From NCBI GenBank assembly GCA_964540815.1, contig CAZIOH010000031.1, forward strand, positions 211 to 64,210: a DNA stretch of 64,000 nt, given 5' to 3'. Below are positions 4,667-18,284 of the stretch, one piece after another. Position 1 is the stretch's first letter; each line of letters starts with the position of its first letter. This stretch comes from an uncultured Myxococcales bacterium. GTDB lineage: Bacteria > Myxococcota_A > Polyangia > Fen-1088. A program made the position numbers and the translations under genes. The notes beneath the pieces are model-generated. The model was not told the origin of the DNA. It searched no databases and worked only from the letters and a program-made list of their open reading frames with translations.

Positions 4667-5010
4667 CAGCCCGAGTCGTCCCCACGAAGGGCCGGGAGAG
4701 GAAAGCTCCTGGCCCATCGGCCATGTGGCACCCGGCGCTTCGTCGGTGACTTCGCGCGGAGCGATCGCCTCTCCATGTATGCAACACCGGAGGCACCCGG
4801 CGGCCCCGGGGGGGCCAAGGAACCGACTGGCTCACCCCAACCACCACTCTTCGTAGTCGAGACTACGAACTCTCGTTGTTGAACCGCGCCCGCGCCCTTC
4901 ATCTCCAAAGATTCCGGCACTCTTGGGCTGGAAGGGCCGATGGCACGGCGCCTGCTGCAGCTGGGGATGTTCCCCGCTTCCGGTGGAGCAGAGACCACGA
5001 GGAAGGAACC

Positions 5011-5571
5011 ATGTGCAGGATCTCCCCGATCGATCCCGACGCTCTCACGGCCGCGCGCGACGAGGTCCTCGATGCCGTGAGGGCGAAGTTCGGCATGGTG
5101 CCAATGATGGTGCGAACGATGGCGCGGTCGCCCGCCGTCCTCTCCGGCTGGGCGGCGCTCGACGCCGCGCTGGCCAAAGGGGTGCTCGGGTCGCGGGTGA
5201 GCGAGCTCATCGCGCTCGCGGTGGCCCAGGTGAACCTGTCCCCATACTGCCTGGCGGCGCACAGCGCGCTCGGCCAGATGGTCGGGCTCTCGCCCGACGA
5301 CGCCGTCGAAGCCCGGCGGGGCCATGCGCCCCGGCGAGGCCAAGGGGAAGATCCGAAGGAGGCCGCTGCCATCCGTCTGGCGCTGGCGATCCTCGAGACC
5401 CGCGGAGGCGTGAGCGACGAGGTGCTCTGCCTCTGCCGCGAAGCGGGACTGTCGGACCAGGAGATGACCGAGGTGTCGGCACACGTGGCTCTGAACGTCC
5501 TCGCGAACTACTTCACCCGCCTGGCGGAGCCGCAGATCGACTTCCCGATGGTCGACGTCCGCCTGCCCTGA
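5011..5571 (+). CDS. carboxymuconolactone decarboxylase (AhpD-like/CMD) family protein
   Basis: The CMD-family motif NLSPYCLAAHS (CxxxH) is present. Start is ATG at 5011 (MCRISPID...), inside the longer track ORF 4876..5571. Confidence 0.75.
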   Translation: MCRISPIDPDALTAARDEVLDAVRAKFGMVPMMVRTMARSPAVLSGWAALDAALAKGVLGSRVSELIALAVAQVNLSPYCLAAHSALGQMVGLSPDDAVEARRGHAPRRGQGEDPKEAAAIRLALAILETRGGVSDEVLCLCREAGLSDQEMTEVSAHVALNVLANYFTRLAEPQIDFPMVDVRLP

Positions 5572-5624
5572 ACGCGAAACCAATCTGTCCCGTCACGTCA
5601 ACCACAAACGCCTGGAGAATTCAC

Positions 5625-6587
5625 ATGTCAATGTCCGCCATGACCGCATCCCCCATCGCGACGCCCACCCCGGCCGCTCCCGCCATGCCGACTCCGGTCA
5701 CCTTCGGGTCGACCATGGTCGATGGCCTGAACATCGCCTACCGTGAGGCCGGCAACCCGTCGAGCCCGAAGCTGGTCCTGCTGCACGGCTTCCCGGCCTC
5801 GTCGCACCAGTACCGCAATCTGGTGCGCGTCCTCGGCGATACCTTTCACGTCATCGCCCCCGACTACCCGGGATTCGGAAACAGCGATACCCCCGACCCC
5901 GGGAAGTTCGGCTACACCTTCGACAAGCTTGCCGAGGTGGTCGAGCGCTTCCTCGCCATCAAGGGGTTCGTTCACTACGGACTGTTCGTGCAGGACTACG
6001 GCGGACCGGTGGGCTTCAGGATCCTGGCGCGCCATCCCGAGGCGCTCGATTGGCTGGTCATCCAGAACACCAACGCCTACGAGATCGGCTTCACCGCGGC
6101 CTGGGACGGCTTCCGCGGCGCCTTGTGGAAGAATCCGTCGCCCGAGACCGAAGCGCCACTTGCCGGCTTTCTGACCCACGACGCGATCAAGGGCATCTAC
6201 CTCCACGGCGCCAAGCGCCCCGAGTTCGTGAGCCCGGACAACTGGGAGTCGGATTTCGGGTTCATGCAGCGCCCGCACGCCGTTCGCATGAACCTCGACC
6301 TCTTCTACGACTACCGGAAGAACGTGCCGCTCTACCCGGAATGGCAGGCATTCCTGCGCAACCGGCAGCCAAAGACCCTCATCTTCTGGGGTCAGGACGA
6401 TGTGTTCTTCACGAAGGAGGGCGGCGAGGCCTATCTGACCGACCTCCCCAACGCAGAGATGCACCGGCTCGCCGCCGGACACTTTGCGGTCGAGGACAAC
6501 CTCGAGTACATCTCAGAGCACATGCACCGCTTCTACGCGGAGAAGGTTGCCTCTGACGGCAGGAAGAAGGCGGTCGGCCACCGATAG
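5625..6587 (+). CDS. alpha/beta hydrolase fold protein (epoxide hydrolase/haloalkane dehalogenase-like)
   Basis: VLLHGFPASSHQYRNL and the GFG-containing nucleophile elbow region are present. Start is ATG at 5625 (MSMSAMTAS). Confidence 0.85.
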   Translation: MSMSAMTASPIATPTPAAPAMPTPVTFGSTMVDGLNIAYREAGNPSSPKLVLLHGFPASSHQYRNLVRVLGDTFHVIAPDYPGFGNSDTPDPGKFGYTFDKLAEVVERFLAIKGFVHYGLFVQDYGGPVGFRILARHPEALDWLVIQNTNAYEIGFTAAWDGFRGALWKNPSPETEAPLAGFLTHDAIKGIYLHGAKRPEFVSPDNWESDFGFMQRPHAVRMNLDLFYDYRKNVPLYPEWQAFLRNRQPKTLIFWGQDDVFFTKEGGEAYLTDLPNAEMHRLAAGHFAVEDNLEYISEHMHRFYAEKVASDGRKKAVGHR

Positions 6588-6633: not shown

Positions 6634-8673
6634 TCAGCCACCGCCTGCGGCAAGGCCCAGGGACTTGATGCGCGAAGCGAGCGTGGTCGGCTTCATGCCG
6701 AGCCTCTCGGCCGCGCCACCAGGGCCGAAGATCTTGCCGTCGGCCTCCCGGAGCGCTCGAGCGATGTTCTCGCGCTCCTGGTTCTTCAGCTCGTCTCGGG
6801 TGAGCAGGCCGGTCGCCACCGACGGCTGGCCGACCGGCCGAACCGGGGCGGCCGGCTTTGGCGCCGGCAGGTCGAACTCCAGCAGCCCATCTCGGGAAAG
6901 GATCACGGCCCGCTCGACGGCATTCTGGAGCTCGCGGATGTTGCCCGGCCAGTCGTGAGCCGTGAGCTGGGCCATCACGGCCTGCGCTATCCGGGGGGTG
7001 GGGCGGCCCATCTGGCGCGCGATCACCCTCGCGAAGTGGGAGACCAGCAGCGGGACGTCCTCGCGCCGCTCGCGCAGGGGCGGCAGGGCGATCGGAAAGA
7101 CGCTGAGGCGGTAGAAGAGATCTTCGCGGAAGCGGCCTTCTTGGGCCTCCCTCTTCAAGTCGCGGTTCGTCGCCGCGATGATCCGGACATTCACCTTGCG
7201 GGTCCTGGTGTCCCCGACGCGCTCGAGCTCCCGCTCTTGCAATACGCGCAACAGCTTGGCTTGCATCGCAAGCGGGATCTCCCCGACCTCGTCCAGGAAG
7301 AGCGTGCCACCGTCCGCCAGCTCGAAGCGCCCCGGCTTGTCCTTGACGGCGCCGGTGAAGGCGCCTCTGACGTGACCAAAGAACTCGCTCTCGAACAGGC
7401 TGTCGGGGATGGCGCTGCAGTTCACCTTGATGAGGACCTGGCCGTTTCGGTGACTCTGCTGGTGGATCGCCCGGGCGATCAACTCCTTTCCGGTTCCACT
7501 CTCGCCGTTGATGAGCACCGAAGCATCCGTGGGAGCGACGAGCTGGGTCTGCTGCAGCACCTTCTGCAAGCCGGGACTCTCTCCGATGACCGCGCCGAAG
7601 TTGAAGTCCGAGAGGATCTCTTCGTAGAGGTAGGCGTTCTCGGCCTGCAGGCGAACTTGCTGCCGCTCGAGGAGCACCCGATCCGTGATGTCGACCATGG
7701 CGGTGCGGGTGTACTCGCCGCCCCGCGCGGGCTTCGACCACCATTGGACCCAGATCGGGGCGCCGGTGTCCTTGCGGCGCAGCTCCAGCACGACTCCGTC
7801 CTTTCCCTTTCCCGCCTCGATCGCCTCGAACGCCTCCTGCAGGGCGCGCTGGTTCTCCGGTGTCTCGGCGACCAGTGACTTGCCGAAGGTCCTCGCGATC
7901 TCCGTCGGATCGATGCCGAGCATCTTGATCGCCGCCGCGTTGGCGCGGATGAAGCGGGAGTCCATTCCCTCGTGCACATAGGGGATGGGGGCCTCATCGA
8001 AGAGATCGCGGAAGCGCTCCTCGTTGTCGGCCAGGATCCGATTGGTGGCACGCAGCTGTTCGTTCAGCGACTGCTGCAAGCCCTCGAGGGCGGCGATCTT
8101 CCTCGCCGCCAACCGAAGCTCCATCTGGTCCATCACCAGCGACGCCAGCTTGTTCAGCATCTCGGCCTCGGGGGCCGTGAGCTCGCGCGGCTCTCGATCG
8201 ATGATACAGAGTGTGCCGAGATTGAAGCCTTCCCGGGTGCGCAGGGGCGCCGCCGCGTAGAAGCGCAGACCCAGGCTCCCGGTCACCAGGGGATTGGCGA
8301 GCGTCCTCGGATCGATCGCGGCATCGGACACTTGATAGAAGTCCGGGGAGAGGATCGCCGAGGAGCACAGGCCTGGAGCGCGATCGATCTCCGCTGCATC
8401 GAGGCCAGCGTGGGACTTGAACCAGATCCGATCGTGGTCCACGAGGCTGATGAGCGCGATGGGGACACGGAACAGGCCTGCCGCGACCGCCGTGATGCGA
8501 TCGAAGGCGCCATCCTGAGGGGTGTCGAGAATGTCGTACCGCCGGAGGACGTCGAGACGCTCCTCCTCATTGGCGGCCATGTTCTCGCTCGCACTGGGCA
8601 CGAGGACTTCTAGCACGGGGACCCGAGCGGGGGGCGTGGGTTCGCCCGCGCCCACGGCCGGGTCGAACGGCAC
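6634..8673 (-). CDS. sigma-54-dependent transcriptional activator with GAF and PAS sensor domains (bEBP, Fis-type HTH)
   Basis: The AAA+ sigma-54 interaction domain contains GESGTGKELIARAIH. A GAF-like N-terminus and a PAS region precede it, and a C-terminal HTH follows. The track start at 8673 is GTG. An ATG at 8580 (MAANEEERL, start of GAF) is an equally plausible start. Confidence 0.85.
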   Translation of the reverse strand: MPFDPAVGAGEPTPPARVPVLEVLVPSASENMAANEEERLDVLRRYDILDTPQDGAFDRITAVAAGLFRVPIALISLVDHDRIWFKSHAGLDAAEIDRAPGLCSSAILSPDFYQVSDAAIDPRTLANPLVTGSLGLRFYAAAPLRTREGFNLGTLCIIDREPRELTAPEAEMLNKLASLVMDQMELRLAARKIAALEGLQQSLNEQLRATNRILADNEERFRDLFDEAPIPYVHEGMDSRFIRANAAAIKMLGIDPTEIARTFGKSLVAETPENQRALQEAFEAIEAGKGKDGVVLELRRKDTGAPIWVQWWSKPARGGEYTRTAMVDITDRVLLERQQVRLQAENAYLYEEILSDFNFGAVIGESPGLQKVLQQTQLVAPTDASVLINGESGTGKELIARAIHQQSHRNGQVLIKVNCSAIPDSLFESEFFGHVRGAFTGAVKDKPGRFELADGGTLFLDEVGEIPLAMQAKLLRVLQERELERVGDTRTRKVNVRIIAATNRDLKREAQEGRFREDLFYRLSVFPIALPPLRERREDVPLLVSHFARVIARQMGRPTPRIAQAVMAQLTAHDWPGNIRELQNAVERAVILSRDGLLEFDLPAPKPAAPVRPVGQPSVATGLLTRDELKNQERENIARALREADGKIFGPGGAAERLGMKPTTLASRIKSLGLAAGGG

Positions 8674-8770
8674 TACGAAGTGTCGTCGATCGACGAGTTC
8701 TCGTCGGGCTCCAGGCCCGGTCTGGCTGCGATCGCTGCGCGATCCGGCCCCGAGCGCGCCGTCTCCGCGG

Positions 8771-8786
8771 TGGCACGGTCTTCGCT
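8771..8786 (+). promoter_or_regulatory. candidate sigma-54 (-24/-12) promoter TGGCACG-N4-TCGC upstream of the secreted-paralog/msrPQ operon
   Basis: The sequence gTGGCACGgtctTCGCt has the GG and GC dinucleotides at the canonical 11-nt spacing, with one mismatch to TTGC. It lies about 75 bp upstream of the start at 8860 and is divergent from the bEBP gene. Confidence 0.5.
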
Positions 8787-8859
8787 GAAGCCTCGCGGGA
8801 TGCCGTGGTCTTCACTCGGAGCCACCCACCGCGATTTTCCACTTGAAAGGACCAACACC

Positions 8860-10056
8860 ATGATTCGACGCCTCGACTTCCGTAACAGACCCTTGACATT
8901 CCTGAGCTCGGCCGTCGTCGCCGGGTTCGGACTCTCCACGAATCCGCTCTACGCGGACTCGGAGGTCACGCCGGCGCCGGCCTCGATCGGGGCCGATGTG
9001 CCGGTGACGTACTTCGGCCCGGCGCCGTCTTCCGTCGAGCCCGAGTTGATCGGGCCGCACCAGTTGATCACCGCCGGTCAAGTGGATCTGGCAGCCAGCA
9101 CGGTGAAGCTTCCGCTCTACAAGGGCCGGATGAAGAACACCGGCAAGGCCGTGTGGTTCATCCTCACGGATACCAGCGACGAGGGGCAGGCCCGAGCCCT
9201 TGGGATCAACTACTCCGCGAAGCTGCAATACGCGGCGACCTGCCGGGCCGCCCGAAACGGTGACTTCGCAAACGACGGCTCGGTGATCTTCGAGGAGGGG
9301 ACCGTCGACTTCGCGCCGGTCCATGCCGTCACACCGGGCGTCGCGCCGAAGGTCTTCCCGCCCGCCGCATTTCAGGCTGGCTCGGTCGGGGATGCCGACT
9401 ACAGCCCGCTGGTTCGCCTCGCCGGGGTCGTCTACAACGCCCCCATCGTGGCGTTCGGGGTCGAGGACGCAGATCTCGATTTCTGCCAGGCCACCCCTGA
9501 CCATTCCAAGGTCCACGACAAGGTCACCGCCATCTGTCCGAGGGACAACACCGTCACCCTGCGGCTGACCAACGGCTTCAGCTTCTCTCGACCCATCGTC
9601 TACATCAGCCTGGACGCAAACGATCCGCTCGCCGCCGCGCTCGAATCGGCGACCCTGGCCCCGGCCCTGAGCGACGTCACGGTGGGGCGAGACGACAGCT
9701 TCACCAGCGGCGTCGAGCGTCTCTTTGCGGTCATCAATGGTCCCACCAATGTGACCTCGGGCGAGGTGAACCCGCAGCGGCAAGGTTTCGAGAGCGTTCT
9801 CAAGGGAGACGGGTACGGGCCGCTCAACGTCTTCGGGGGAATCCCGACCTTGGCGACCGACTACAGCCCGCTGTGGGATGTGAACCTCGGCGAGTGGACC
9901 CAAGAGGCCATCGACAACGGCTATCGCTCACGCATCACCGACGAGTTCACCTGGCTCGGAATGGCGGTGCGCGGCTTCGTGACTGGGCCGGGGGGCACGC
10001 CCTACGGCTCGAGCGGAATCATCATCAACTGTCCTCCCGTCGCACGTCTCCTTTGA
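8860..10056 (+). CDS. secreted protein of unknown function, paralog A (about 398 aa), Sec signal peptide
   Basis: Inside track ORF 8680..10056; ATG start at the MIRRLDFRNRPLTFLSSAVVAGFGLS signal peptide. Roughly 45-50% identical to the next gene across its full length. The two share conserved Cys pairs (FCQATPDHSKVHDKVTAICP) and a DYSPLWD-NLG-WT motif. Confidence 0.7.
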   Translation: MIRRLDFRNRPLTFLSSAVVAGFGLSTNPLYADSEVTPAPASIGADVPVTYFGPAPSSVEPELIGPHQLITAGQVDLAASTVKLPLYKGRMKNTGKAVWFILTDTSDEGQARALGINYSAKLQYAATCRAARNGDFANDGSVIFEEGTVDFAPVHAVTPGVAPKVFPPAAFQAGSVGDADYSPLVRLAGVVYNAPIVAFGVEDADLDFCQATPDHSKVHDKVTAICPRDNTVTLRLTNGFSFSRPIVYISLDANDPLAAALESATLAPALSDVTVGRDDSFTSGVERLFAVINGPTNVTSGEVNPQRQGFESVLKGDGYGPLNVFGGIPTLATDYSPLWDVNLGEWTQEAIDNGYRSRITDEFTWLGMAVRGFVTGPGGTPYGSSGIIINCPPVARLL

Positions 10057-10093
10057 ACTCCCTCCTCTACCGACACCAACGGAGCCTACGATC

Positions 10094-11464
10094 ATGAAAA
10101 CCTCTGAATACGTCATTCTCGTCACTGTCCTCAACCTGATGGCGGGCGTGGGATGCAACAGCAGCAGCGGAACGGCGAGCGCTCTCAGCACCGGCGGAGG
10201 TGGCCTCGGCGGAAGCGGCGGCCAGCCGCCGGGAGCCGCGGACGCCAGCGACCTTCGAACGGGGCCGCAATGTCGCCAGGTCGGGGCCACCCGTTCTCCG
10301 CAGGTGACGACTGGCCTCGCCGACGAGATAGCTCCGGCGCCGCCTTCGATCGGCGCGGACGTCCCAGCGACCTACTTCGGGCCGAGCCCGTCCAGTGTGA
10401 ACCCCAACCTGGTGGGTCCGCTCACCTTGCTGAGGAGTGGCACGATCGATTTCGCCAAGGGCACCATCAAGCTGCCGCTCTACAAGGGCATGGTCAAATC
10501 GACGGGCCTCGCCGTTTACTACATCCTCACGGACACCAGCGACAAGGGGATTGCCGATGGGCTCGGGTTGAACTACTCGGCGAAGTTGAAGTTCGCGAAC
10601 GCCGCGGCGAGCGCGGGGGTCAACGGCTCGAATCCGGCGACCACCCTTCCCGCGCGGCAGGCGCACACGACCGCCGATCTCTCGCTGCAGTTCGACAACG
10701 GCACCGTCGACTTTGCCCCGCGGCTGGCGGTCACCCCCGGTGGGGCGCCGGACTTCTTTCCACCGTCCGCGGTGCAGCCCGGGTCGATCGGCGACAGCGA
10801 CTACACGCCGCTCGTCTACGTGCAGGATCAAGGGGTCGTGTACAACGCGCCCGTCGTCGCCTACGGTGTGACCGACGGCGATCTCAGCTTCTGTGACGGC
10901 GTCCCCGACTACGCCAAGGTGCATGACAAGGTCGCCGCCATCTGCCCGGACGACGGTACGGTGACCATTCGCCTGACGGCGGGCTTCAGCTTCGGCAAGC
11001 CCGTGTGGTATCTCAGCACGGACGCGAGCGATCCGCTCCTGGCTGCCCTCGAGCAAGCGACGTTTGCACCGGCCCTGCAGAACACCCGCGTCGGGGGCGA
11101 CGACGGCGCGTTCAGCGCGGTCGAGCGGATCTTCTCCTTCGCCAATGGTCCCACGAACGTCGGGACTGGCGACGTGGTCAACCCGCAACGACAAGGCCTG
11201 AACAGCGCGCTCAAGGGCGAAGGAGGTCCGCTCAACGTGCTCGGTGGAATTCCACACGTCGCCACCGATTACAGCCCCCTGTGGGACTTCAACCTGGGGG
11301 TCTGGACGGCCGACGCCATCGCCAAGGGCTATCGCTCTCGTGTGAACGAGGAGTTCCAGATCCTGGGGCTCGTCCAGCGCGGCTTCATCACCGGGCCAGG
11401 CGGCAAGCCGTGGGGTTCGACTGGCCTCATCGTGGACTGCCCCATCGTGCACCGCTTTCTCTAG
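10094..11464 (+). CDS. lipoprotein of unknown function, paralog B (456 aa), Gly/Ser-rich linker after the lipobox
   Basis: MKTSEYVILVTVLNLMAGVGC is a lipoprotein-type signal. Shared motifs with paralog A include LPLYKG, LTDTSD, NYSAKL, VYNAPVVA, KVHDKVAAICP and ATDYSPLWD. Confidence 0.7.
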   Translation: MKTSEYVILVTVLNLMAGVGCNSSSGTASALSTGGGGLGGSGGQPPGAADASDLRTGPQCRQVGATRSPQVTTGLADEIAPAPPSIGADVPATYFGPSPSSVNPNLVGPLTLLRSGTIDFAKGTIKLPLYKGMVKSTGLAVYYILTDTSDKGIADGLGLNYSAKLKFANAAASAGVNGSNPATTLPARQAHTTADLSLQFDNGTVDFAPRLAVTPGGAPDFFPPSAVQPGSIGDSDYTPLVYVQDQGVVYNAPVVAYGVTDGDLSFCDGVPDYAKVHDKVAAICPDDGTVTIRLTAGFSFGKPVWYLSTDASDPLLAALEQATFAPALQNTRVGGDDGAFSAVERIFSFANGPTNVGTGDVVNPQRQGLNSALKGEGGPLNVLGGIPHVATDYSPLWDFNLGVWTADAIAKGYRSRVNEEFQILGLVQRGFITGPGGKPWGSTGLIVDCPIVHRFL

Positions 11465-11475
11465 AGCACCCGTTC

Positions 11476-11517
11476 CCAACCAACCAGCCAACCGACCAAC
11501 CAACCAACCAACAACAG
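11476..11517 (+). repeat. imperfect (CCAA)n tetranucleotide tract (about 10 units) in the 5' leader of the Met-rich lipoprotein gene
   Basis: The tract ccaaccaaccagccaaccgaccaaccaaccaaccaacaacag sits directly upstream of an AAGGAG RBS and the ATG at 11542. It is an A/C-rich simple repeat in a roughly 70% GC genome. Confidence 0.6.
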
Positions 11518-11541
11518 ACCCACCCACCAAGGAGATCCCCC

Positions 11542-11928
11542 ATGAAACTCGCACTCGTCGTTCTCGCCACCATGCCGTTCAGCTTCTCCGCCTGCAAATC
11601 CTCCCCGCCCGGGGGCCCGGAGATGACACAACCGGCGATGCACGCCACCATGGCTGGCCAGGCACACGGCCCGGGCATGATGAGCGCGCCCGCCATGGCA
11701 GGGACGGGTAACACTGCGCCAGCGATGGCCGGTGGCGCCATGGCCGGTGGCTCGATCATGGCGGCACATGCCGTCGCCCCGGCGGCCGCCGTGATGGCAC
11801 ACGCGCCCGCCACGGCGCCCGCCATGGTGCCCGCCGCCATGGCACCGGCCACCACCATGGGGGCGACATCAAAGCCGACCATGAAGACGGCCGGTGGCAA
11901 GCGTCCGGTCGCCGGAACCCGACTCTAG
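11542..11928 (+). CDS. Met/Ala/His-rich small lipoprotein (MrpX-like methionine-rich peptide, or Cu-binding Met-rich protein), 128 aa
   Basis: ATG at 11542 with an AAGGAG RBS. The signal ATMPFSFSAC points to a lipoprotein. The mature part (AMHATMAGQAHGPGMMSAPAMAGTGNTAPAMAGGAMAGGSIMAAHAVAP...) has about 13% Met with MxxxM spacing and several His. It lies immediately upstream of msrP. Confidence 0.7.
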   Translation: MKLALVVLATMPFSFSACKSSPPGGPEMTQPAMHATMAGQAHGPGMMSAPAMAGTGNTAPAMAGGAMAGGSIMAAHAVAPAAAVMAHAPATAPAMVPAAMAPATTMGATSKPTMKTAGGKRPVAGTRL

Positions 11929-12191
11929 GGACCAGTCACTCGGATGCTCCACGGAATCAACATGGCCAGCGAGGTGGACGGCACGGGGATGATGACCGGC
12001 CGTTCCCTCGCGTGGGGGCGTGAGACTCCTGAGTCAGCAATGAATGCGATTCCGTCGCCGGAGACTCCGGCGGCGGAGGCCCGATCGCGCGCCGTCCAGG
12101 CCTGCGGTCGTGCTAGTGTTTCCTGCGTGGTCGACGTGACGGATCGGGAGCGGAGTCGTGGCGGCGAAGGCCGGCGACTCCGTCGAGGCTG

Positions 12192-13178
12192 ATGGCCAGT
12201 TCGGACGACATACCGCCGTCGGAGATCACACCGGCCTCGATGTACTTCAACCGGAAGACCTTCATGCGGGGGGTCGTGGCAGCTGCCAGCGTGGCCACGA
12301 CGGCGGCCGTCTACCGCCGTCTGAACGGCAAGTCCGAAGCGGCCGTCGAGGCGCCGAAGTTGGCCGGCCTGGAAGCGCCGGCCGTATCCGCCGAGGCGGC
12401 CGCGGCCGACGGCTACCGCATCGACGAAGCGATGACGCCGCTCGCTTCCGTCACGCACTACAACAACTTCTACGAGTTCACCACGGACAAGGACGGCGTG
12501 GCGGACCGGGCCAAGGACTTCTCGACCAAGGGCTGGCAGGTGACGGTCGATGGCCTGGTGGGCAAGCCCAGGGTGTTCGACCTCGCCGATCTCCTGAAGA
12601 TCAGTCCCCCCGAGGAGCGGATCTATCGAATGCGTTGCGTGGAGGCGTGGTCGATGGTGATTCCGTGGGCCGGCTTCTCGTTGTCGAAGCTCCTCGCGCG
12701 GGTGGAGCCGCTCAGCGCGGCGAAGTACGTCGCGTTCGAGACGCTGCTCGATCCAGCGCGCATGCCAGGTCAGAAGACCGGCGTGCTCGACTGGCCATAC
12801 ATCGAGGGACTTCGGATGGACGAGGCCATGCATCCCCTGACGATCCTGGCGTCGGGCTTGTACGGGCGCGAGCTGCCCGCGCAGGACGGGGCCCCGGTGC
12901 GGCTGGTGGTGCCCTGGAAGTACGGCTTCAAGGGGATCAAGTCGGTCGTGAAGATCTCCCTGGTCGCGGCGCAACCCAAGACCACCTGGAACCTCCAGGC
13001 GCCCGACGAATATGGGTTCTTCGCCAACGTCAACCCCAAGGTCGACCATCCGCGCTGGAGCCAGGCCACGGAACAGCGCATCGGTGAATCGGGCCGCCGC
13101 GCCACCCTGATGTTCAACGGCTACGGCAAGCAGGTGGCGAGCCTGTATTCGGGCATGGACCTGCGCGCGAACTTCTGA
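12192..13178 (+). CDS. msrP: protein-methionine-sulfoxide reductase catalytic subunit MsrP (YedY, molybdopterin-dependent)
   Basis: The YedY hallmark THYNNFYEF is present, with the Mo-cofactor region that follows it. A Tat-like N-terminus ([20 protein letters not shown]) is present. An alternative start is the ATG at 12240. Confidence 0.85.
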
Positions 13179-13200: not shown

Positions 13201-15003
13201 ATGAAGCGCAAGCGCGACCTCCGGTTCACGAAGCTCCTGGTCGTGGTCAACGCGATCGTTCCGGGGGCGATCCTGGCCTGGGATGCAGCCCACGGACAGA
13301 TTGGTGTCAACGGCGTCAACTACGCCCTGCACACCACGGGATTGTTGGCCCTGATCTTCTTGCTGCTCACGCTCCTGGTGACGCCGCTGCGCAAGATCAC
13401 CGGGATCAACACCCTGATCTCGTACCGCCGCACGCTGGGGCTCATGGGGTTCGGCTACGCATGCGTGCATTTTCTGATCTTCTACGGGCTCGATCGCGCC
13501 GCGAGCGTCTCGAGCACGGTGCACGAGATCTTGACCAGGCGCTACCTGCTCATCGGGACCGCGGGGTTGTTGTTGATGGTGCCGCTGGCTGCCACCTCGA
13601 CGAACGCCATGCTGATGCGGCTGGGGGCAAAGCGCTGGAAGGCGCTGCACCGCCTGGTCTACCTGGTCGCGATCGCCGGCGCGCTGCACTACTACCTGCT
13701 GGTGAAGTCGGATGTTCGACAGCCGCTGGCGTTCGCCGGGGTGCTGGTGGCGCTCCTTGGCTTCCGGGTGGTGGGGTACCTCCTCGATCGGCGCAAGGCA
13801 CTCGACCCCGCGAAGCGCGCCCCCGCTTCGATGACGACGACGGCTTCGGCGACGTCGCCATCGCCGTCGCCGTCGCCGTCGGGCCCTGCCAGACCCCGCT
13901 CCTGGTCGGGGAGCCTTCGGGTGGCGAACGTGTTCGACGAGACACCCGACGTTCGCACGTTCCGTCTGATGCGCGAGGATGGGCAGCCGCTGCCGTTCGA
14001 GCACCAGCCAGGCCAGTACCTGAATCTGGCCCTCACCATAGACGGGAGGCGTGTCAATCGGTCGTACACCATCGCGTCGTCGCCCACGCGCGGGCACTCC
14101 TGCGAGGTCACGGTCAAGCGCAGCCCGAGCGGGCAGGGCTCTGTCCACCTGCACGATCAAATTCGCGTCGGTACCATGCTGAAGGTGTCGGCGCCCGCCG
14201 GCCGCTTCGTGTTCACGGGGGCAGGGTCGGATCGGGTCTTCCTCATCGCAGGCGGCGTGGGGATCACCCCCCTCATGTCCATCATTCGCTACCTGACGGA
14301 TCGCAGCTGGCCGGGCCAGATCCACCTGCTGTTCTCGTCGAAGAAGCGGGTCGATCTGATCTTCGCCGAAGAGCTCGCCTATCTGGAGCGGCGGTTCCCC
14401 AACCTCCACGTCTGTCACACGTTGTCGCGCGAGGATGGAAAAGGGGAGGTCAGCGATTGGAAGGGCGAGCGGGGCACCATCACCCGTGAACTCCTGGCGC
14501 GCGTGATGCCGGACGTGGCCCGTGGGCCGGTCTATCTGTGCGGGCCGGACGGCATGATGGCGGCGGTGCGGAAGGTGCTTCTCGAGATGGGTTTGCCCGA
14601 GGGGCTGCTGAAGACCGAGGCCTTCGTGTCTCCGCTGACCGCGGGGGCGCTGGCGCCTGCGGCCACCGGAGAGGACGCCGTCTCGGCGACCTTGGAGACT
14701 GCAGCGGCTGCCGACCCGCTGGCGACCACCCGGACGGAGGGGGCAGGGCATGTGCGCTTCCAGCGATCGGGCCAGCAGATCGAGGAGTCGCCGACCAAGA
14801 CGATCCTCGAGACCGCAGAGGACGCTGGCGTCAGCATTCCTTTTGAATGTCGTTCGGGCATCTGTGGACAGTGCAAGACCAAGTTGATCTCGGGGCGCGT
14901 GACCATGGAGACCGAGGACGCGCTCAGCGCGGCCGAGAAGGCCCGGGGATTCATCCTCGCCTGTCAGGCGCACGCCGTTGGTGACGTGACCGTCGATGCC
15001 TGA
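13201..15003 (+). CDS. msrQ: MsrQ (YedZ-like ferric-reductase transmembrane haem-b domain) fused to an FNR-type FAD/NAD(P)H oxidoreductase domain and a C-terminal 2Fe-2S ferredoxin domain
   Basis: The N-terminal 200 aa form a six-helix membrane domain with conserved His. RSYTIASSP is an RxYS FAD-binding motif and FLIAGGVGITPLMS is an NAD(P)-binding motif. The C-terminus CRSGICGQCKTK...ACQ is a plant-type 2Fe-2S ferredoxin motif. The reading frame runs 600 aa without interruption. Confidence 0.85.
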   Translation: MKRKRDLRFTKLLVVVNAIVPGAILAWDAAHGQIGVNGVNYALHTTGLLALIFLLLTLLVTPLRKITGINTLISYRRTLGLMGFGYACVHFLIFYGLDRAASVSSTVHEILTRRYLLIGTAGLLLMVPLAATSTNAMLMRLGAKRWKALHRLVYLVAIAGALHYYLLVKSDVRQPLAFAGVLVALLGFRVVGYLLDRRKALDPAKRAPASMTTTASATSPSPSPSPSGPARPRSWSGSLRVANVFDETPDVRTFRLMREDGQPLPFEHQPGQYLNLALTIDGRRVNRSYTIASSPTRGHSCEVTVKRSPSGQGSVHLHDQIRVGTMLKVSAPAGRFVFTGAGSDRVFLIAGGVGITPLMSIIRYLTDRSWPGQIHLLFSSKKRVDLIFAEELAYLERRFPNLHVCHTLSREDGKGEVSDWKGERGTITRELLARVMPDVARGPVYLCGPDGMMAAVRKVLLEMGLPEGLLKTEAFVSPLTAGALAPAATGEDAVSATLETAAAADPLATTRTEGAGHVRFQRSGQQIEESPTKTILETAEDAGVSIPFECRSGICGQCKTKLISGRVTMETEDALSAAEKARGFILACQAHAVGDVTVDA

Positions 15004-15074: not shown

Positions 15075-16322
15075 TCAGACAGGACACGAGCTGGCGGCTG
15101 GCTCGCCTCCGTGCGCTGCATGGGTGGAGTAGTCGGGCAGCTCGAGATCGTCGACGAGGCTGGACCCGACGGCCAATCTCGCGAGAAGCGGCGACCCCAG
15201 CACCCTCGTGGCCTGGTTCCGCATGAATATGCCGAGACCCGTTCGGGGTGCGATTGAACTGGCGAATCGGGCCGCTGCCGATTGCGTTTGAAGCATGAAC
15301 TTTCGCAGGAGCTGCTCGTATCGACTGAAGGCATCCTGCACGCTGCCGGAGCTCGAGGTAGCGCGGGCCATCTCGCCCGCCAGCACGTAAGCGCTCACGA
15401 GCGCCAGCGCGGCCCCCTGGCCGGCCATCAGGGACGGTGCAAACGCCGCGTCACCCACGAGCGCGACCCGGCCCTTCGACCACGCGTCCATGTGGATCTG
15501 GCTGACCCGATCGAAGGAGAGCGTATCCACGTCCCCGAGTGCGGCGAGAACGCGGTCACTCTCCCAGCCCGTGTTCGCAAAGCGACGGTGCAGATACGCC
15601 CGCTGCTGGTCGAGGTCCCGCGGCAGGGCCGCCACTCTGCGGCTTTCGGCCGCCAGGAGGAGGAAGCTGGTCCGATCATCGGGCATCGAATAGCGCATGA
15701 TCTGTTGCCCCGGCACTGCAAAGCCCACGCAGTCAGCCCCGTCGGCCGGGCGGTAGCCGGTACTTTCGAACGCCGCTGCCGTGTAGCCGAGGAATCGCTC
15801 GAAGCGAGACTGCGGCCCGAAGACCAGGGAACGCACCGTCGAGTGCAGCCCGTCGGCGGCGATCACGACGTCGAAGCGACGCGATGGGCTCAGGCGAAAA
15901 TGGACCAGGACGCCGTCCGCGTCCTCCTCGAGCGCGGAGATGGAGTCGCCGAAAATTGACTCCACCCGACCATCGATCGAGCTCTGGAGGATCTCGCTGA
16001 GCGCGCCTGGCGGCAAGCTGATGTAGCGTCCGTTGGTGAGGGCTTCGAATCGCTCCCCCTTGAAGCCGCCTGTGCGCCTTCCCTGGCGGTCCACCAGGCG
16101 AACCTCGCGCACGCGATACCCGGCAGCCAGGACCCTCGGCAAGAGTCCCATACGCTCGACGAGGTCGAAGCCAGGTCCCCAGAGATGGATGATGTGGCCG
16201 CTCCGGCGCGGCGCGGGCGCCTGTTCGACCATGGTCGGAACGCAACCATAGCGAAGCAACCAGTTGGCCACGGCAGGCCCCGCAATCCCGTTGCCGGAGA
16301 TGAGCACGGACTGTCCCCGCAT
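15075..16322 (-). CDS. FAD-dependent monooxygenase (salicylate/aromatic hydroxylase, UbiH-like family)
   Basis: MRGQSVLISGNGIAGPAVANWL is a GxGxxG FAD fingerprint. The C-terminal GDAAH-type motif VALVGDAAFAPSLMAGQGAALA is present. The likely start is the internal ATG at 16322; the track ORF extends to 16412. Confidence 0.8.
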   Translation of the reverse strand: MRGQSVLISGNGIAGPAVANWLLRYGCVPTMVEQAPAPRRSGHIIHLWGPGFDLVERMGLLPRVLAAGYRVREVRLVDRQGRRTGGFKGERFEALTNGRYISLPPGALSEILQSSIDGRVESIFGDSISALEEDADGVLVHFRLSPSRRFDVVIAADGLHSTVRSLVFGPQSRFERFLGYTAAAFESTGYRPADGADCVGFAVPGQQIMRYSMPDDRTSFLLLAAESRRVAALPRDLDQQRAYLHRRFANTGWESDRVLAALGDVDTLSFDRVSQIHMDAWSKGRVALVGDAAFAPSLMAGQGAALALVSAYVLAGEMARATSSSGSVQDAFSRYEQLLRKFMLQTQSAAARFASSIAPRTGLGIFMRNQATRVLGSPLLARLAVGSSLVDDLELPDYSTHAAHGGEPAASSCPV

Positions 16323-16655
16323 GGGCGTGGGGATGGGTCGAGGTCGGAGTCGCCTCGACCCCTCGACCTGCATGGAGGCGCTCACCGCGCCCCCCCCAGA
16401 CGTGACGCGCATCCCACGCTGTGTCGTGGCTGTCGACGCGCTCTCCAGAAGCCTTGGCCTTCCGAGTCCGAGCGCACGCCCGGGTGTCGCCGCGCCATCT
16501 CCCCTGGCGGCGCACGCCGCCGTGAAAGATCTGTCAACTCCGAAGTCCGAGCGCGCCGCCCCGCGGAGGCTCGAAAGTCCACGGCGGCGGCCGTCAGCTC
16601 GACCTGGAGACCCATCAGATGCAGCGGTTCGAACCTTCGAGACATGGGCCCCTCT

Positions 16656-18284
16656 TCACATCGCCGAGTGGGGAAGCAGGTCCAATCTGGAGACAGCCCC
16701 GTCGACCGGTGCCCCGCCCGAAAGCCCACCCGACCCACCTGGTAGGTCGACCACATCCGGCTTGATCGTGAGGTCCGCGAAGGCGGTGGTCTTGCTTCCC
16801 GCGGTGGCGACCAAGCGATCGGAGAGATCCCCGAGAAGCTGGTTGAGATCCGCGCGCCTGGCCGCCACCCGATTCAACCCTTTGGCCATTCGCGATATCT
16901 GCCGCGACGATTCAGGTGACGCGGATTCCTGGCGCGCGGCGACCCGGTACTCGGCGTGCGCGCAGGCGTCCGTCCTCAGTGCCTCGAGCAGGTCCGCAAT
17001 CTGGCCCTGGGTTTCGGCATCCAGCGCCGCCCGCTCGAAGGAGGCCACGCCCTCCGCCTTTCCGAACCAAACCCGCCCGGGCACCCCGAACGGGCCGGCC
17101 ATGCCCCCGTCGGGGGGAGAGTCCTCGATCACGAAGGTCGGCTCCGAAGTGAAGGGGAAAGTCTTGGGAAAGACCGCGAAGAGAACCGAACCGTCGGACA
17201 ATCCGCGCGCCAGCCCGACGAGCCCACCAAACGGGAAGAACATCTCTCGTCCGGCCCCGAGCTCGGCCCACAATCGCGCCCGATCCCTTGGGGTCAGCGC
17301 CAGAGGCTCGTCGGCATGGTCGTGAGGCGTTCGCTTGAAGGTGGACATCATGTCCCGCACCTGGTCTATCCCAACGACCACGTTCAGAGCGCTCCCCTCG
17401 GTATAGCCGGCATGATAGATGCCGACGAGCTCGTACTCGCCCGTCGTGGGAGAGACCGCGAGGACCGGAGATCCCGAGTTCCCCGAGGACAGCAGGGCAT
17501 CGACCACAAAGTCGTCGTGGTCCCAGTCGCCGAAGTCGTCGTGGTCGAGCGCGGAAATCACCTTGCCGACGTTGGTCGCACGGAAGGCCCCGAGGGGAAA
17601 TCCGCGCACCTCGACCACGTCGCGCTCTCGAAGCTCGGCGCTGTGCCCGATCCTCCAGGGCATCACGTGCAGCTCCACCTGGGTCTTCACGATGGCCACG
17701 TCGAGCTGAGGATCGGTCACGACCCTCGTGAGTGGCACGTCGTCGCGGTCGTAGGCGTCACGCTCATCGTCGACCAGGGACAGCGATTCCGACATACGCT
17801 TGCAACCCGAGGGGACCCCACTGACGACGTGCTGAGGATCCGTCACCGGGGGCCAGGAGGCCACGTGGTCATTGGTGAGGAGAAAGGTCTCCGCGCCCTG
17901 GCGCCGGTACGCGAAGGCGGTCCCGTGCAGCACGGCTTTCCGACGCTCCTTCCGTACGGCCCCTTCCGGGCCGTAGGATAGGCATTCGTAGACCGCCGTA
18001 TTGCGCGCGCAATACGAAAAGACACCCTCGGGACGATGATCGAACTCACGTGCCTCGGCCGACAGAGCCGAGAAGTCGTCGGCATATCCCAATGGGCCAC
18101 GAGGCGCGGACTCGGCGGGCGTGGCGAGGCGGTGGGCTGGCCCCAGAGATCCTCCATTGGAGTTCGACGATCCGGGAGCGCGTGAGGCTGCTCCCTGTCC
18201 GAGGATCTCCGCTGTGGCGCCGCTCTCGGCAACGTACGAGAGGAGGAGCGTGAGCCCGAGGGCGAGCAGCCAAGGGCGCTTCAT
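16656..18284 (-). CDS. secreted trypsin-like (S1/HtrA-like) serine peptidase domain protein
   Basis: The signal peptide is MKRPWLLALGLTLLL. The catalytic-serine motif GNSGSPV is present, with His/Asp contexts (DHV, DVAIVK) upstream. Confidence 0.7.
   Translation of the reverse strand: MKRPWLLALGLTLLLSYVAESGATAEILGQGAASRAPGSSNSNGGSLGPAHRLATPAESAPRGPLGYADDFSALSAEAREFDHRPEGVFSYCARNTAVYECLSYGPEGAVRKERRKAVLHGTAFAYRRQGAETFLLTNDHVASWPPVTDPQHVVSGVPSGCKRMSESLSLVDDERDAYDRDDVPLTRVVTDPQLDVAIVKTQVELHVMPWRIGHSAELRERDVVEVRGFPLGAFRATNVGKVISALDHDDFGDWDHDDFVVDALLSSGNSGSPVLAVSPTTGEYELVGIYHAGYTEGSALNVVVGIDQVRDMMSTFKRTPHDHADEPLALTPRDRARLWAELGAGREMFFPFGGLVGLARGLSDGSVLFAVFPKTFPFTSEPTFVIEDSPPDGGMAGPFGVPGRVWFGKAEGVASFERAALDAETQGQIADLLEALRTDACAHAEYRVAARQESASPESSRQISRMAKGLNRVAARRADLNQLLGDLSDRLVATAGSKTTAFADLTIKPDVVDLPGGSGGLSGGAPVDGAVSRLDLLPHSAM

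What the first reader, a model, noticed from the sequence alone, without database searches (positions are those of the whole stretch)
11542..11928. MrpX-like methionine-rich sacrificial peptide candidate directly upstream of msrP
After its lipoprotein signal, the 128-aa product is a low-complexity Met/Ala/His-rich chain with recurring A-M-A and MxxxM spacing and about 13% Met. Its position immediately 5' of msrP-msrQ mirrors the Azospira mrpX-yedY-yedZ arrangement, in which a Met-rich peptide acts as a renewable hypochlorite sink re-reduced by MsrP. The His content and MxxM motifs are equally compatible with Cu(I) binding (PcoE/CopC-like). Here it is a lipoprotein rather than a soluble peptide, which differs from MrpX. 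A (CCAA)n tract in its leader may modulate expression.
Basis: partly seen in the sequence, partly recalled or inferred. Interest (0 to 1): 0.75.

Follow-up and report, generated by a model that had tools for sequence, protein, structure and literature searches.

The report
Methionine-rich lipoprotein beside MsrPQ repair genes
This is a real, conserved small gene for a floppy, methionine-studded protein anchored to a membrane; it probably soaks up oxidants and is recharged by the neighbouring methionine-repair enzyme MsrPQ, but it is unrelated in sequence to the known protein of that kind (MrpX) and travels most faithfully with two proteins of unknown function (DUF7482).

Summary
The ORF at 11542-11928 (+) is a real gene. 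It has a strong ribosome-binding site, a 17-residue lipoprotein signal (Cys18) and 14 Met in 111 mature residues (background 1.5%). Six divergent homologues keep the frame, the signal and the Met content. Nine of 14 mature Met are invariant against 16 of 97 other residues.

His is only 3%, there is no MxxM, and MxxxM occurs once. msrP starts 263 nt downstream. The CCAA tract shows no length variation.

The protein is not a member of the MrpX/BcrX family (TIGR02953, MXKDX repeats) or of any Pfam or NCBIfam family.

Its constant neighbour is a pair of DUF7482 genes (7 of 7 loci) behind a conserved sigma-54 promoter, with a GAF-PAS enhancer-binding protein nearby. msrPQ is a frequent neighbour but not an obligatory one.

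In two other lineages a true MXKDX protein sits in the same DUF7482 plus Mo-oxidoreductase neighbourhood. This supports a functional analogy with MrpX.

Best reading (about 0.5): a membrane-tethered, disordered methionine sink recycled by MsrPQ. Cu(I) binding is a weaker rival that need not exclude it. I rate it a new variant of a known kind, of moderate interest.

The parts
11542..11928 (+). Gene for a 128-aa Met-rich lipoprotein. Residues 1-17 (11542-11592) are the signal peptide. The lipobox Cys18 is at 11593-11595 and residue +2 is Lys. The mature chain is 111 aa with 14 Met, 31 Ala, 15 Gly, 14 Pro, no aromatic residue and no second Cys.
   Evidence: The exact protein is indexed in 45 collection blocks (22 contigs read). 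Homologues P0002-P0005 and those in L094 and L097 keep the frame, signal and Met content. 9 of 14 Met are invariant against 16 of 97 other residues, Fisher P=4e-4. The AlphaFold2 model has pLDDT 51 and no secondary structure.
11476..11534 (+). C/A-rich, G-poor leader (an imperfect CCAA array) that ends in the Shine-Dalgarno AAGGAG at 11529-11534.
   Evidence: TRF reports period 4, 14 copies, 78% matches. The tract is identical in the window and in four independent contigs read separately (L001, L003-L005). The block AAAGGAGATCCnCCATGAAA is conserved across the family.
8771..8786 (+). Sigma-54 type -24/-12 promoter-like element, TGGCACGGTCTTCGCT, 73 nt upstream of the first DUF7482 gene (ATG at 8860).
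   Evidence: One mismatch to TGGCAC-N5-TTGCW. The same element occurs upstream of dufA in L091, L092, L095, L168 and L169. In L094 and L097 it occurs upstream of the CMD gene that precedes the Met-rich gene.
6634..8673 (-). Divergently transcribed sigma-54 enhancer-binding protein with GAF, PAS, AAA+ and HTH_8 domains.
   Evidence: Pfam. The same gene is present in L168, L169 and L094.
8860..10056 (+). DUF7482 paralogue A, 398 aa, with an exported N-terminus containing RR.
   Evidence: Pfam PF24298. 62% identical to paralogue B. The start follows the gene call in L001.
10094..11464 (+). DUF7482 paralogue B, 456 aa, with a lipoprotein-like N-terminus. It ends 77 nt before the Met-rich gene.
   Evidence: Pfam PF24298. 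More than 2500 homologues, all named hypothetical. No PDB match by sequence or fold.
11929..12191 (+). Conserved 263-nt spacer between the Met-rich gene and msrP. It holds a 12-13 bp G+C-rich hairpin (about 11969-12011) and an extended -10-like TGCTAGTGT (12111-12119).
   Evidence: The spacer is conserved in the window, L006 and L168 but absent from L091 and L093, which lack the Met-rich gene. The hairpin forms in all three, with z-scores of only -1.1 to -1.9. No Rfam family matches. Substitutions in the 82-codon ORF 11944-12192 are mostly non-synonymous (read from the alignment).
12192..13178 (+). msrP, the periplasmic molybdenum-containing protein-methionine-sulfoxide reductase, with a Tat-type N-terminus.
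   Evidence: NCBIfam NF003767 equivalog, 463 bits against a cutoff of 207. Pfam Oxidored_molyb.
13201..15003 (+). msrQ fused to an FNR-like FAD/NAD-binding reductase and a 2Fe-2S ferredoxin domain, 600 aa.
   Evidence: Pfam Ferric_reduct, FAD_binding_6, NAD_binding_1 and Fer2. NF003831 MsrQ, 147 bits against a cutoff of 130.
4941..6587 (+). A second sigma-54-like site (4941-4956), followed by an AhpD-like CMD gene (5011-5571) and an alpha/beta-hydrolase gene (5625-6587). In L094 and L097 these genes flank the Met-rich gene directly.

Best explanation
The gene encodes a small, intrinsically disordered lipoprotein whose selected feature is its exposed methionines. It is exported by Sec, lipidated at Cys18 and tethered to a membrane facing the periplasm. 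If the host is a myxobacterium, the conserved Lys at +2 points to the inner membrane, next to MsrQ.

The gene is probably transcribed from a sigma-54 promoter together with two DUF7482 envelope proteins, under a GAF-PAS enhancer-binding protein. Its roughly 14 thioethers would react with oxidants such as HOCl, chloramines, H2O2 or singlet oxygen to give methionine sulfoxide. That would spare the neighbouring envelope proteins and lipids.

MsrP would then reduce the sulfoxides back to methionine. Electrons would come through the MsrQ-FNR-ferredoxin fusion encoded just downstream, which could draw them from NAD(P)H. In this reading the protein works like MrpX/BcrX but is not related to it.

Shown here: the gene is real and conserved; it has a lipoprotein signal; Met is preferentially conserved; the protein is predicted to be disordered; its gene neighbourhood and the sigma-54 element are conserved; MsrP and MsrQ are correctly identified.

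Inferred, not shown: that it is oxidised, that MsrP re-reduces it, which membrane holds it, and what signal induces it.
For: 1. The gene is real. It has a strong Shine-Dalgarno sequence and a lipobox, and seven divergent family members keep the frame, the signal peptide and 12-15% Met.
2. Met is what selection keeps. 9 of 14 mature Met are invariant against 16 of 97 other residues, P=4e-4. Repeat number and sequence otherwise drift; 45 of 62 differing codons are non-synonymous.
3. The AlphaFold2 model has no secondary structure and pLDDT 51. MsrP prefers unfolded substrates and clustered MetO (bioRxiv 10.1101/243626).
4. It lies on the same strand as msrP and msrQ in the window, L006 and L168, and in one cluster with a divergent msrP in L097.
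5. Non-orthologous replacement. In L049 (an Acidobacteriota MAG) the order is an ECF sigma gene, an MXKDX protein, an AraC gene, DUF7482, an EthD gene and msrPQ. In L119 it is two DUF7482 genes, a LysR gene, cytochrome b561, a Mo-oxidoreductase and an MXKDX protein. Both Met-rich proteins pass the TIGR02953 cutoff. MXKDX proteins are the MrpX/BcrX family (PMC8315932).
6. Other msrP loci carry unrelated Met-rich exported proteins within 3.5 kb. One is a lipoprotein directly upstream (L016). Others are Met-rich N-termini fused to Redoxin/AhpC-TSA domains (L015, L067).
7. The cluster also holds an AhpD-like CMD gene. A sigma-54-like site also precedes the HtrA-like protease gene.
8. Lys at +2 occurs in 6 of 7 members. 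Lys at +2 marks 8 of 12 inner-membrane lipoproteins in M. xanthus (PMC3222651).
Against: - There are no expression, oxidation or reduction data.
- The composition is unlike MrpX: 6% charged against 44%, and 12.6% Met against 20% (PMC4436054).
- Several Met are followed by Pro or Thr within a few residues. This is the context in which R. sphaeroides MsrP reduces MetO least well.
- msrP is not an obligatory neighbour. L169 and L089 have the Met-rich gene with the DUF7482 pair but a convergent, unrelated gene where msrP would be. L091-L093 have DUF7482 followed by msrPQ without it.
- The closest genome-collection relative of this msrPQ (L008) has no Met-rich gene.
- A conserved hairpin and a promoter-like element separate the gene from msrP, so co-transcription is uncertain.
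- The host's taxonomy is not established, so the inner-membrane inference is conditional.
Confidence: 0.5

Rival explanations
1. It is a periplasmic Cu(I)/Ag(I)-binding lipoprotein, acting as a metal sponge or chaperone in the manner of PcoE/SilE or CusF. Thioether and imidazole ligands would hold the metal, and MsrP would only keep those ligands reduced.
For: Relatives in L094 and L097 consist of 7-8 tandem M-A-A-H-x-x-M units, that is MxxH plus HxxM. From my own knowledge, these are the Ag(I)/Cu(I) ligand motifs described for SilE and PcoE. His34 is invariant in the five closest members. In E. coli, MsrPQ is induced by copper and repairs the Met ligands of CusF (PMC9302797), so this role and an MsrP link can coexist.
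Against: The window protein has only one MxxH, one HxxM and no MxxM. P0002 and P0003 have 2 His each, and P0005 has no MxxH or HxxM motif at all. No CopA, multicopper oxidase, Cus, CopC/D, CueR or CusRS was found among the genes scanned across the 64 kb or in the related loci. There are no Pfam or NCBIfam metal-protein hits at E<=10. The predicted regulator is a sigma-54 GAF-PAS enhancer-binding protein.
Confidence: 0.17
2. It is a dedicated accessory of the DUF7482 pair, for example a tether, an assembly factor or a substrate, with a role that is not oxidant scavenging. msrPQ would then be only a frequent bystander that repairs envelope proteins in general.
For: The Met-rich gene lies next to or within two genes of the DUF7482 pair in 7 of 7 arrangements. 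It shares their sigma-54 promoter, and its position moves (before dufA or after dufB) while it stays in that operon. msrP is missing from the operon in L169 and L089. The C-terminal S-K-x-x-M-K ... V-A-G-T-R-L block is conserved in one subfamily.
Against: Most DUF7482 loci (identity below 62%) show no such gene in the flanks held. The C-terminal block is absent from the L094 and L097 members. What is conserved family-wide is Met content, not a binding motif. Unrelated MXKDX proteins replace it next to DUF7482 in L049 and L119, which points to a composition-based role.
Confidence: 0.25
3. It is a spurious ORF: a frame that happens to stay open in G+C-rich DNA, or the true gene is on the opposite strand.
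For: High-GC DNA gives long open frames. The antisense frame 11427-11900 is open and also rich in Ala and Met. Codon-position differences against homologues are nearly flat at 26, 29 and 30.
Against: The Shine-Dalgarno sequence and start context, a canonical lipoprotein signal and Cys18 are conserved in seven homologues as divergent as about 28% alignable identity. All indels are in frame. Met is preferentially conserved. GC3 is higher in the + frame. Gene callers in independent assemblies called the same ORF.
Confidence: 0.03

Closest known systems
MrpX (Azospira suillum) / BcrX (Brucella melitensis): pentapeptide MXKDX repeat proteins, NCBIfam TIGR02953
   Same: Both are small, exported, low-complexity Met-rich proteins encoded beside msrP/msrQ (yedYZ). 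The proposed role is the same: a sacrificial methionine sink re-reduced by MsrP. True MXKDX proteins occupy the equivalent place next to DUF7482 and a Mo-oxidoreductase in L049 and L119.
   Different: There is no sequence relationship: no TIGR02953 hit at E<=10. This protein is lipid-anchored rather than soluble. It has 6% charged residues against 44%, and 12.6% Met against 20%. The repeats are rich in Ala, Gly and Pro and built on (P/A)AM(A/V), not MxKDx. The predicted control is sigma-54 with a GAF-PAS enhancer-binding protein, not an ECF sigma with an anti-sigma factor (SigF/NrsF, BcrS/AbcS). The tightest gene linkage is to DUF7482, not to msrPQ.
PcoE / SilE periplasmic Met/His-rich metal-binding proteins (from my own knowledge)
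   Same: Both are small, exported and disordered in the apo state, and rich in Met. Relatives in L094 and L097 repeat an MxxHxxM unit that resembles the HxxM and MxxH sites of SilE.
   Different: There is no homology. The window protein has 4 His and a single MxxH and HxxM. It is a lipoprotein. It is not in a pco, sil or cus locus, and no copper or silver genes lie nearby.
E. coli MsrP clients: the lipoprotein Pal, SurA and CusF
   Same: All are envelope proteins whose Met residues are kept reduced by MsrPQ (PMC8315932 discussion; PMC9302797).
   Different: Those are folded proteins with their own functions and ordinary Met content. This one has no predicted fold and about 8 times the background Met.
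Met-rich N-terminal extensions on exported Redoxin/AhpC-TSA proteins near msrP (L015 Udaeobacter, L067 and L050 Anaerolineae)
   Same: These are exported or lipoprotein-type Met-rich low-complexity segments encoded within 3 kb of msrP, with an explicit antioxidant domain attached.
   Different: In those proteins the Met-rich segment is fused to a catalytic domain and is rich in Asp, Lys and Glu. Here the Met-rich chain stands alone.

Membership tests
MrpX/BcrX = pentapeptide MXKDX repeat protein (TIGR02953) | Matches the TIGR02953 profile (cutoff 41 bits) and has MxKDx pentapeptide repeats | tested here: not met
   No NCBIfam hit for P0001, P0002, P0004 or P0005 at E<=10, and no TIGR02953 hit for the L094 and L097 members at E<=1. 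Positive controls from L119 (84.7 bits) and L049 (41.7 bits) do match. No MxKDx unit is present in the sequence.
MrpX/BcrX | Composition of about 20% Met and about 44% charged residues (PMC4436054) | tested here: not met
   The mature chain has 12.6% Met and 6.3% D+E+K+R.
MrpX/BcrX | Signal peptide and export to the periplasm | tested here: met
   A signal peptide is present, but of the lipoprotein (SPase II) type: F-S-A-C with Cys18. MrpX is described as soluble.
MrpX/BcrX | Encoded in one transcription unit with msrP/msrQ (yedYZ) | tested here: inconclusive
   The gene is on the same strand, 263 nt upstream of msrP in the window, L006 and L168. The spacer carries a conserved hairpin and a -10-like element. 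msrP is absent from the operon in L169 and L089. No transcript data are available.
MrpX/BcrX | Controlled by an RCS-responsive ECF sigma/anti-sigma pair (SigF/NrsF, BcrS/AbcS) | tested here: not met
   No ECF sigma gene lies adjacent. Instead there is a conserved sigma-54 -24/-12 element and a GAF-PAS enhancer-binding protein.
MrpX/BcrX | Rapidly oxidised by HOCl and re-reduced by MsrP (YedY) | not testable with these tools
   This needs biochemistry.
Bacterial lipoprotein (SPase II substrate) | An N-terminal positive residue, a hydrophobic core, and a lipobox [LVIMF..][ASTG..][AGS]C | tested here: met
   The N-terminus is MKLALVVLATMPFSFSA|C. The same architecture, with Cys at position 18, is found in all 7 members.
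PcoE/SilE-type Met/His metal sponge | Multiple HxxM or MxxH (or MxxM) ligand motifs, and a copper or silver resistance locus | tested here: not met
   The window protein has 1 MxxH, 1 HxxM and 0 MxxM. No copper or silver genes were found in 64 kb. Relatives in L094 and L097 do have 7-8 of each motif. Metal binding itself cannot be tested here.
MsrP (NF003767), the neighbouring gene | Equivalog profile score above the cutoff | tested here: met
   463 bits against 207.

The most novel reading that the evidence does not exclude
The DUF7482 proteins, an exported Met-rich protein (of either of two unrelated families) and an MsrP-type molybdoenzyme with its membrane electron donor together form an unrecognised envelope module. 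In this clade it is sigma-54-controlled. The Met-rich lipoprotein would not be a passive sink. It would be the working redox mediator or dedicated client of the DUF7482 proteins, cycling between Met and MetO with electrons that could come from NAD(P)H through the MsrQ-FNR-ferredoxin fusion. This would give a first functional handle on a widespread family (more than 2500 homologues) with no recognisable fold.
Probability: 0.15. Interest if true: 0.85.

Novelty: new variant of a known kind. Interest (0 to 1): 0.55.

Why it matters
Sacrificial methionine sinks recycled by MsrPQ have been described only for the soluble, highly charged MXKDX proteins (MrpX, BcrX) of Proteobacteria.

If this protein works the same way, the strategy has been invented at least twice from unrelated sequences. 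Here it would take a lipid-anchored form that places the sink at a membrane surface, under sigma-54 rather than ECF control.

The more useful lead is the recurrent three-way linkage of DUF7482, a Met-rich exported protein and an MsrP-type enzyme. It was seen in the window's clade, in an Acidobacteriota genome and in a third metagenomic locus of unassigned lineage. It points to a testable role in envelope methionine redox biology for a large, highly conserved family of unknown function.

Tried and rejected
- **Rfam on 11300-12400 at E<=10.** Only chance-level hits, and no Moco riboswitch ahead of msrP.
- **A small protein in the spacer.** The 82-codon ORF 11944-12192 is open in three loci, but the substitutions are mostly non-synonymous and the frame diverges after about 30 codons. 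The conservation is therefore at the nucleotide level.
- **A sigma-54 site in the spacer.** CGGCAC at about 11979 lacks a -12 GC element and is not conserved as one.
- **Sigma-70 and terminator consensus scans of 8600-12400.** No promoter was found, and the number of terminator-like hairpins was at chance level.
- **Exhaustive profile search with the 3-member alignment over 1.84 billion representatives.** Only 3 hits. The L094 and L097 type members were found through gene context, not by sequence search.
- **Host taxonomy.** The closest MsrP in one genome per species is a Myxococcales MAG (73%), followed by Verrucomicrobiota (70%). Taxonomy is left open.
- **CCAA tract as a slippage switch.** No length variation was seen across the window and four independent contigs.
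- **DUF7482 literature.** No paper was found.
Full report
**1. What is at 11542-11928**

The + strand ORF encodes 128 residues:

MKLALVVLATMPFSFSACKSSPPGGPEMTQPAMHATMAGQAHGPGMMSAPAMAGTGNTAPAMAGGAMAGGSIMAAHAVAPAAAVMAHAPATAPAMVPAAMAPATTMGATSKPTMKTAGGKRPVAGTRL

- AAGGAG lies 7 nt before the ATG.
- Residues 1-17 are a typical signal peptide ending in the lipobox F-S-A-C. Cys18 is at 11593-11595.
- The mature chain of 111 aa has 14 Met (12.6%), 31 Ala, 15 Gly, 14 Pro, 4 His, 7 charged residues, no aromatic residue and no second Cys.
- Nineteen other genes of the window average 1.54% Met, so 14 of 111 has a binomial P of 2e-9.
- No other coding frame in the 64 kb reaches 6 Met in 40 residues.

His is 3%, not enriched. 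There is no MxxM and a single MxxxM. The recurring unit is (P/A)AM(A/V) with M-x4-M spacing.

The antisense frame 11427-11900 is also open and Ala/Met-rich, because GCCATGGC is its own reverse complement. It has lower GC3 (0.75 against 0.81) and no start signals.

**2. Is it a gene?**

- The exact protein is indexed in 45 blocks of the collection (22 contigs read, the longest 261 kb), and gene callers called it there.
- A word-indexed search of 5.8 billion proteins found two homologues at about 50% identity.
- An exhaustive profile search of 1.84 billion representatives added two more.
- Gene context revealed two longer relatives, L094:3083-3610 and L097:2101-2646. Their signal peptides (MKTLFVALAALPLTFLACKQDPTD and MKTVFAILATIPFVFLGCKNDPTD) link to the window family through P0005 (MKIALVVLAAIPLAFSACKHDPTN).

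All seven members share a 17-residue signal, Cys18, 12-15% Met and no aromatic residues. Six of the seven have Lys at +2. Indels are in frame. The block AAAGGAGATCCnCCATGAAA around the start is conserved.

Most of the chain drifts. Between the window and L006, 45 of 62 differing codons are non-synonymous, and changes are spread evenly over the three codon positions. The methionines do not drift in the same way. In the five closest members, 9 of 14 mature Met are invariant against 16 of 97 other positions (Fisher P=4e-4).

AlphaFold2 gives no secondary structure (pLDDT 51, pTM 0.11). The alignment behind that model had only three rows.

The simplest reading is a real, disordered lipoprotein in which the number and exposure of Met residues is what selection maintains.

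**3. Surroundings in the window**

| Coordinates | Strand | Feature |
|---|---|---|
| 4941-4956 | + | sigma-54-like site |
| 5011-5571 | + | AhpD-like CMD gene |
| 5625-6587 | + | alpha/beta hydrolase |
| 6634-8673 | - | sigma-54 enhancer-binding protein (GAF-PAS-AAA+) |
| 8771-8786 | + | sigma-54 -24/-12 element, TGGCACGGTCTTCGCT |
| 8860-10056 | + | DUF7482 paralogue A (dufA) |
| 10094-11464 | + | DUF7482 paralogue B (dufB), lipoprotein-like N-terminus |
| 11542-11928 | + | Met-rich lipoprotein (77 nt after dufB) |
| 11929-12191 | + | conserved 263-nt spacer |
| 12192-13178 | + | msrP (NF003767, 463 bits against cutoff 207) |
| 13201-15003 | + | msrQ fused to an FNR-like reductase and a 2Fe-2S ferredoxin |
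| 15075-16412 | - | FAD monooxygenase |
| 16656-18335 | - | HtrA-like protease, with another sigma-54-like site at its 5' end |

No copper-homeostasis gene was found among the genes scanned across the window.

**4. Which neighbour does the gene follow?**

I fetched 80 loci around relatives of MsrP from one genome per species. I also fetched 80 metagenome loci around relatives of the DUF7482 pair.

| Arrangement | Loci |
|---|---|
| dufA - dufB - Met-rich - msrP - msrQ | window, L006, L168 |
| EBP(-) / dufA - dufB - Met-rich, then a convergent unrelated gene | L169 |
| EBP - CMD - Met-rich - dufA - dufB (contig ends) | L094 |
| Met-rich - dufA - dufB, then a convergent 1148-aa gene | L089 |
| msrP(-) / CMD - Met-rich - hydrolase - dufA - dufB | L097 |
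| dufA - dufB - msrP - msrQ, no Met-rich gene | L091, L092, L093 |

- The nearest MsrP in a named genome (a Myxococcales MAG, 73%) has msrP and the msrQ-FNR fusion. It has neither DUF7482 nor a Met-rich gene.
- The sigma-54 element is conserved upstream of dufA in L091, L092, L095, L168 and L169.
- In L094 and L097 the element sits upstream of the CMD gene that heads the operon containing the Met-rich gene.

So the Met-rich gene is a movable member of a sigma-54-driven DUF7482 operon. msrPQ is a frequent companion of that operon but not an obligatory one.

**5. Evidence that it works like MrpX without being one**

MrpX is described as 20% Met and 44% charged, with a signal peptide. It is soluble, controlled by SigF/NrsF, and sits in the yedY1Z1-mrpX operon (PMC4436054). 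Its Brucella homologue BcrX is an 'MXKDX repeat protein' in the bcrXQP operon under the ECF pair BcrS/AbcS (PMC8315932).

The window protein and its relatives match neither TIGR02953 nor anything else in NCBIfam or Pfam (E<=10 for the window protein and its close relatives; E<=1 in NCBIfam for the L094 and L097 members). Membership is therefore rejected.

Two loci show a true TIGR02953 protein in the same company:
- L049 (Acidobacteriota): ECF sigma gene, MXKDX protein, AraC gene, DUF7482, EthD gene, msrP-msrQ.
- L119: two DUF7482 genes, LysR gene, cytochrome b561, Mo-oxidoreductase, MXKDX protein.

Two unrelated Met-rich exported proteins filling one slot next to DUF7482 and an MsrP-type enzyme is the pattern expected of non-orthologous replacement of one function.

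Other msrP loci carry yet other Met-rich exported proteins within 3.5 kb:
- a lipoprotein with MMKDDK repeats directly upstream (L016);
- Met-rich proteins in L018 and L023;
- Met-rich N-termini fused to Redoxin/AhpC-TSA domains (L015, L067; L050 is similar).

MsrP prefers unfolded substrates with clustered MetO (bioRxiv 10.1101/243626).

**6. Proposed mechanism**

Shown: a real gene, a lipoprotein signal, Met-focused conservation, predicted disorder, a conserved sigma-54 element with its enhancer-binding protein, and adjacency to bona fide msrP and msrQ-FNR.

Inferred:
- The protein is lipidated and faces the periplasm.
- If the host is a myxobacterium, the conserved Lys at +2 suggests it stays in the inner membrane beside MsrQ (8 of 12 M. 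xanthus inner-membrane lipoproteins have Lys at +2; PMC3222651). The host taxonomy could not be fixed.
- Its thioethers take up oxidants as MetO.
- MsrP reduces them back to Met, with electrons supplied through the MsrQ-FNR-ferredoxin fusion.

I put this at about 0.5.

**7. Rival explanations**

*(a) Cu(I)/Ag(I) binding.* The L094 and L097 relatives are built of 7-8 M-A-A-H-x-x-M units, and His34 is invariant in the close members. MsrPQ is also known to repair the Met ligands of CusF under copper stress (PMC9302797). Against this, the window protein has one MxxH and one HxxM. Some members have two His or no such motif, and there is no copper context. About 0.17, and not exclusive of the main model.

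*(b) A DUF7482 accessory with some other role.* Its linkage to DUF7482 is the tightest, but no binding motif is conserved across the family, and MXKDX proteins can take its place. About 0.25.

*(c) A spurious ORF.* About 0.03.

**8. Leader and spacer**

The CCAA array is real. It is imperfect, and identical in the window and four independent contigs. In homologues it is replaced by other C/A-rich sequence. It looks like an unstructured, G-poor leader that keeps the ribosome-binding site open in a 67% G+C transcript. Nothing indicates slippage control.

The 263-nt spacer before msrP is about as conserved as the coding sequence in the window, L006 and L168. It is absent where the Met-rich gene is absent. 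It holds a 12-13 bp G+C hairpin about 40 nt after the stop codon and an extended -10-like TGCTAGTGT 72 nt before the msrP ATG. The folding z-scores are modest, and with three sequences there is no usable covariation. Whether msrPQ is read through from the sigma-54 promoter or has its own start remains open.

**9. DUF7482**

The family has more than 2500 homologues at E<=1e-5. Identity is typically about 60% across phyla, and every source names them hypothetical. Many residues are invariant, including three Cys and a V-H-D-K motif.

**10. Verdict**

I rate it a new variant of a known kind, with interest 0.55.

Noticed in passing
window 13201-15003 (+); also L008, L013, L014, L016-L019, L021, L025: MsrQ is fused to an FNR-like FAD/NAD-binding reductase and a C-terminal 2Fe-2S ferredoxin domain (600 aa). 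The fusion would let MsrP draw electrons from NAD(P)H rather than from quinols. It recurs in 9 of the 80 msrP loci fetched, across several of the lineages represented (Myxococcales, Kofleriaceae, Planctomycetota).
   Followed up: partly
window 8860-11464 (+); L088-L167: DUF7482 (PF24298) is a large and very conserved family, with more than 2500 homologues and about 60% identity across phyla. It has no name, no paper and no recognisable fold. It usually occurs as tandem paralogues, one soluble and one lipoprotein. In several loci it lies next to MsrP-type enzymes (L091-L093, L097, L049, L119) or FNR-like reductases (L117, L120, L128).
   Followed up: partly
window 4941-4956 (+), 8771-8786 (+), 18348-18363 (-): Three sigma-54 -24/-12-like sites lie within 14 kb. 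They precede the AhpD-like CMD gene, the DUF7482 operon and the HtrA-like serine protease gene. A GAF-PAS enhancer-binding protein is encoded among them. This may be one envelope-damage regulon. Window-wide there are 4 matches against 1.0 expected.
   Followed up: partly
window 11929-12191 (+); L006 1223-1447; L168 3972-4194: The non-coding spacer before msrP is conserved about as well as the flanking genes. It holds a G+C-rich hairpin (11969-12011), TGCTAGTGT (12111-12119) and a second hairpin just before the msrP start (about 12150-12183). No Rfam family matches. The role is unknown.
   Followed up: partly
L015 4375-5073 (+); L067 2618-3334 (-); L050 2432-3115 (-): Exported proteins with a Met-rich N-terminal low-complexity segment (MMNDGKMM or AMMDKPTE repeats) fused to a Redoxin/AhpC-TSA domain. 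They are encoded 1.5-3 kb from msrP in Verrucomicrobiota and Anaerolineae MAGs.
   Followed up: partly
L016 2557-2937 (+); L018 5399-5761 (-); L023 2041-2853 (-): Planctomycetota msrP loci carry other Met-rich proteins close by that lack any family assignment. L016 has a lipoprotein with MMKDDK repeats 56 nt upstream of msrP. L023 has a 270-aa protein with 16 Met in one 40-residue stretch.
   Followed up: partly
L094 3083-3610 (+); L097 2101-2646 (+): The longer relatives of the window protein consist of near-perfect tandem 12-residue units, APSNMAAHGTMA (7 copies) and PAMTAPDTMAAH (6 copies). Each unit is an MxxHxxM motif. This suggests recent repeat expansion and possibly a metal-binding sub-function.
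   Followed up: partly
window 2402-4666 (+): A 754-aa protein with a di-haem MauG/CCP-like domain lies just upstream of the cluster. It matches the MbnH-family model weakly (83 bits against a cutoff of 363). The same gene is present in L001 and L002.
   Followed up: no
window 11427-11900 (-): A 157-codon antisense ORF mirrors the Met-rich gene because the GCC-ATG-GC units are palindromic. It is a reminder that AMA-type repeats read as Ala/Met-rich on both strands.
   Followed up: yes
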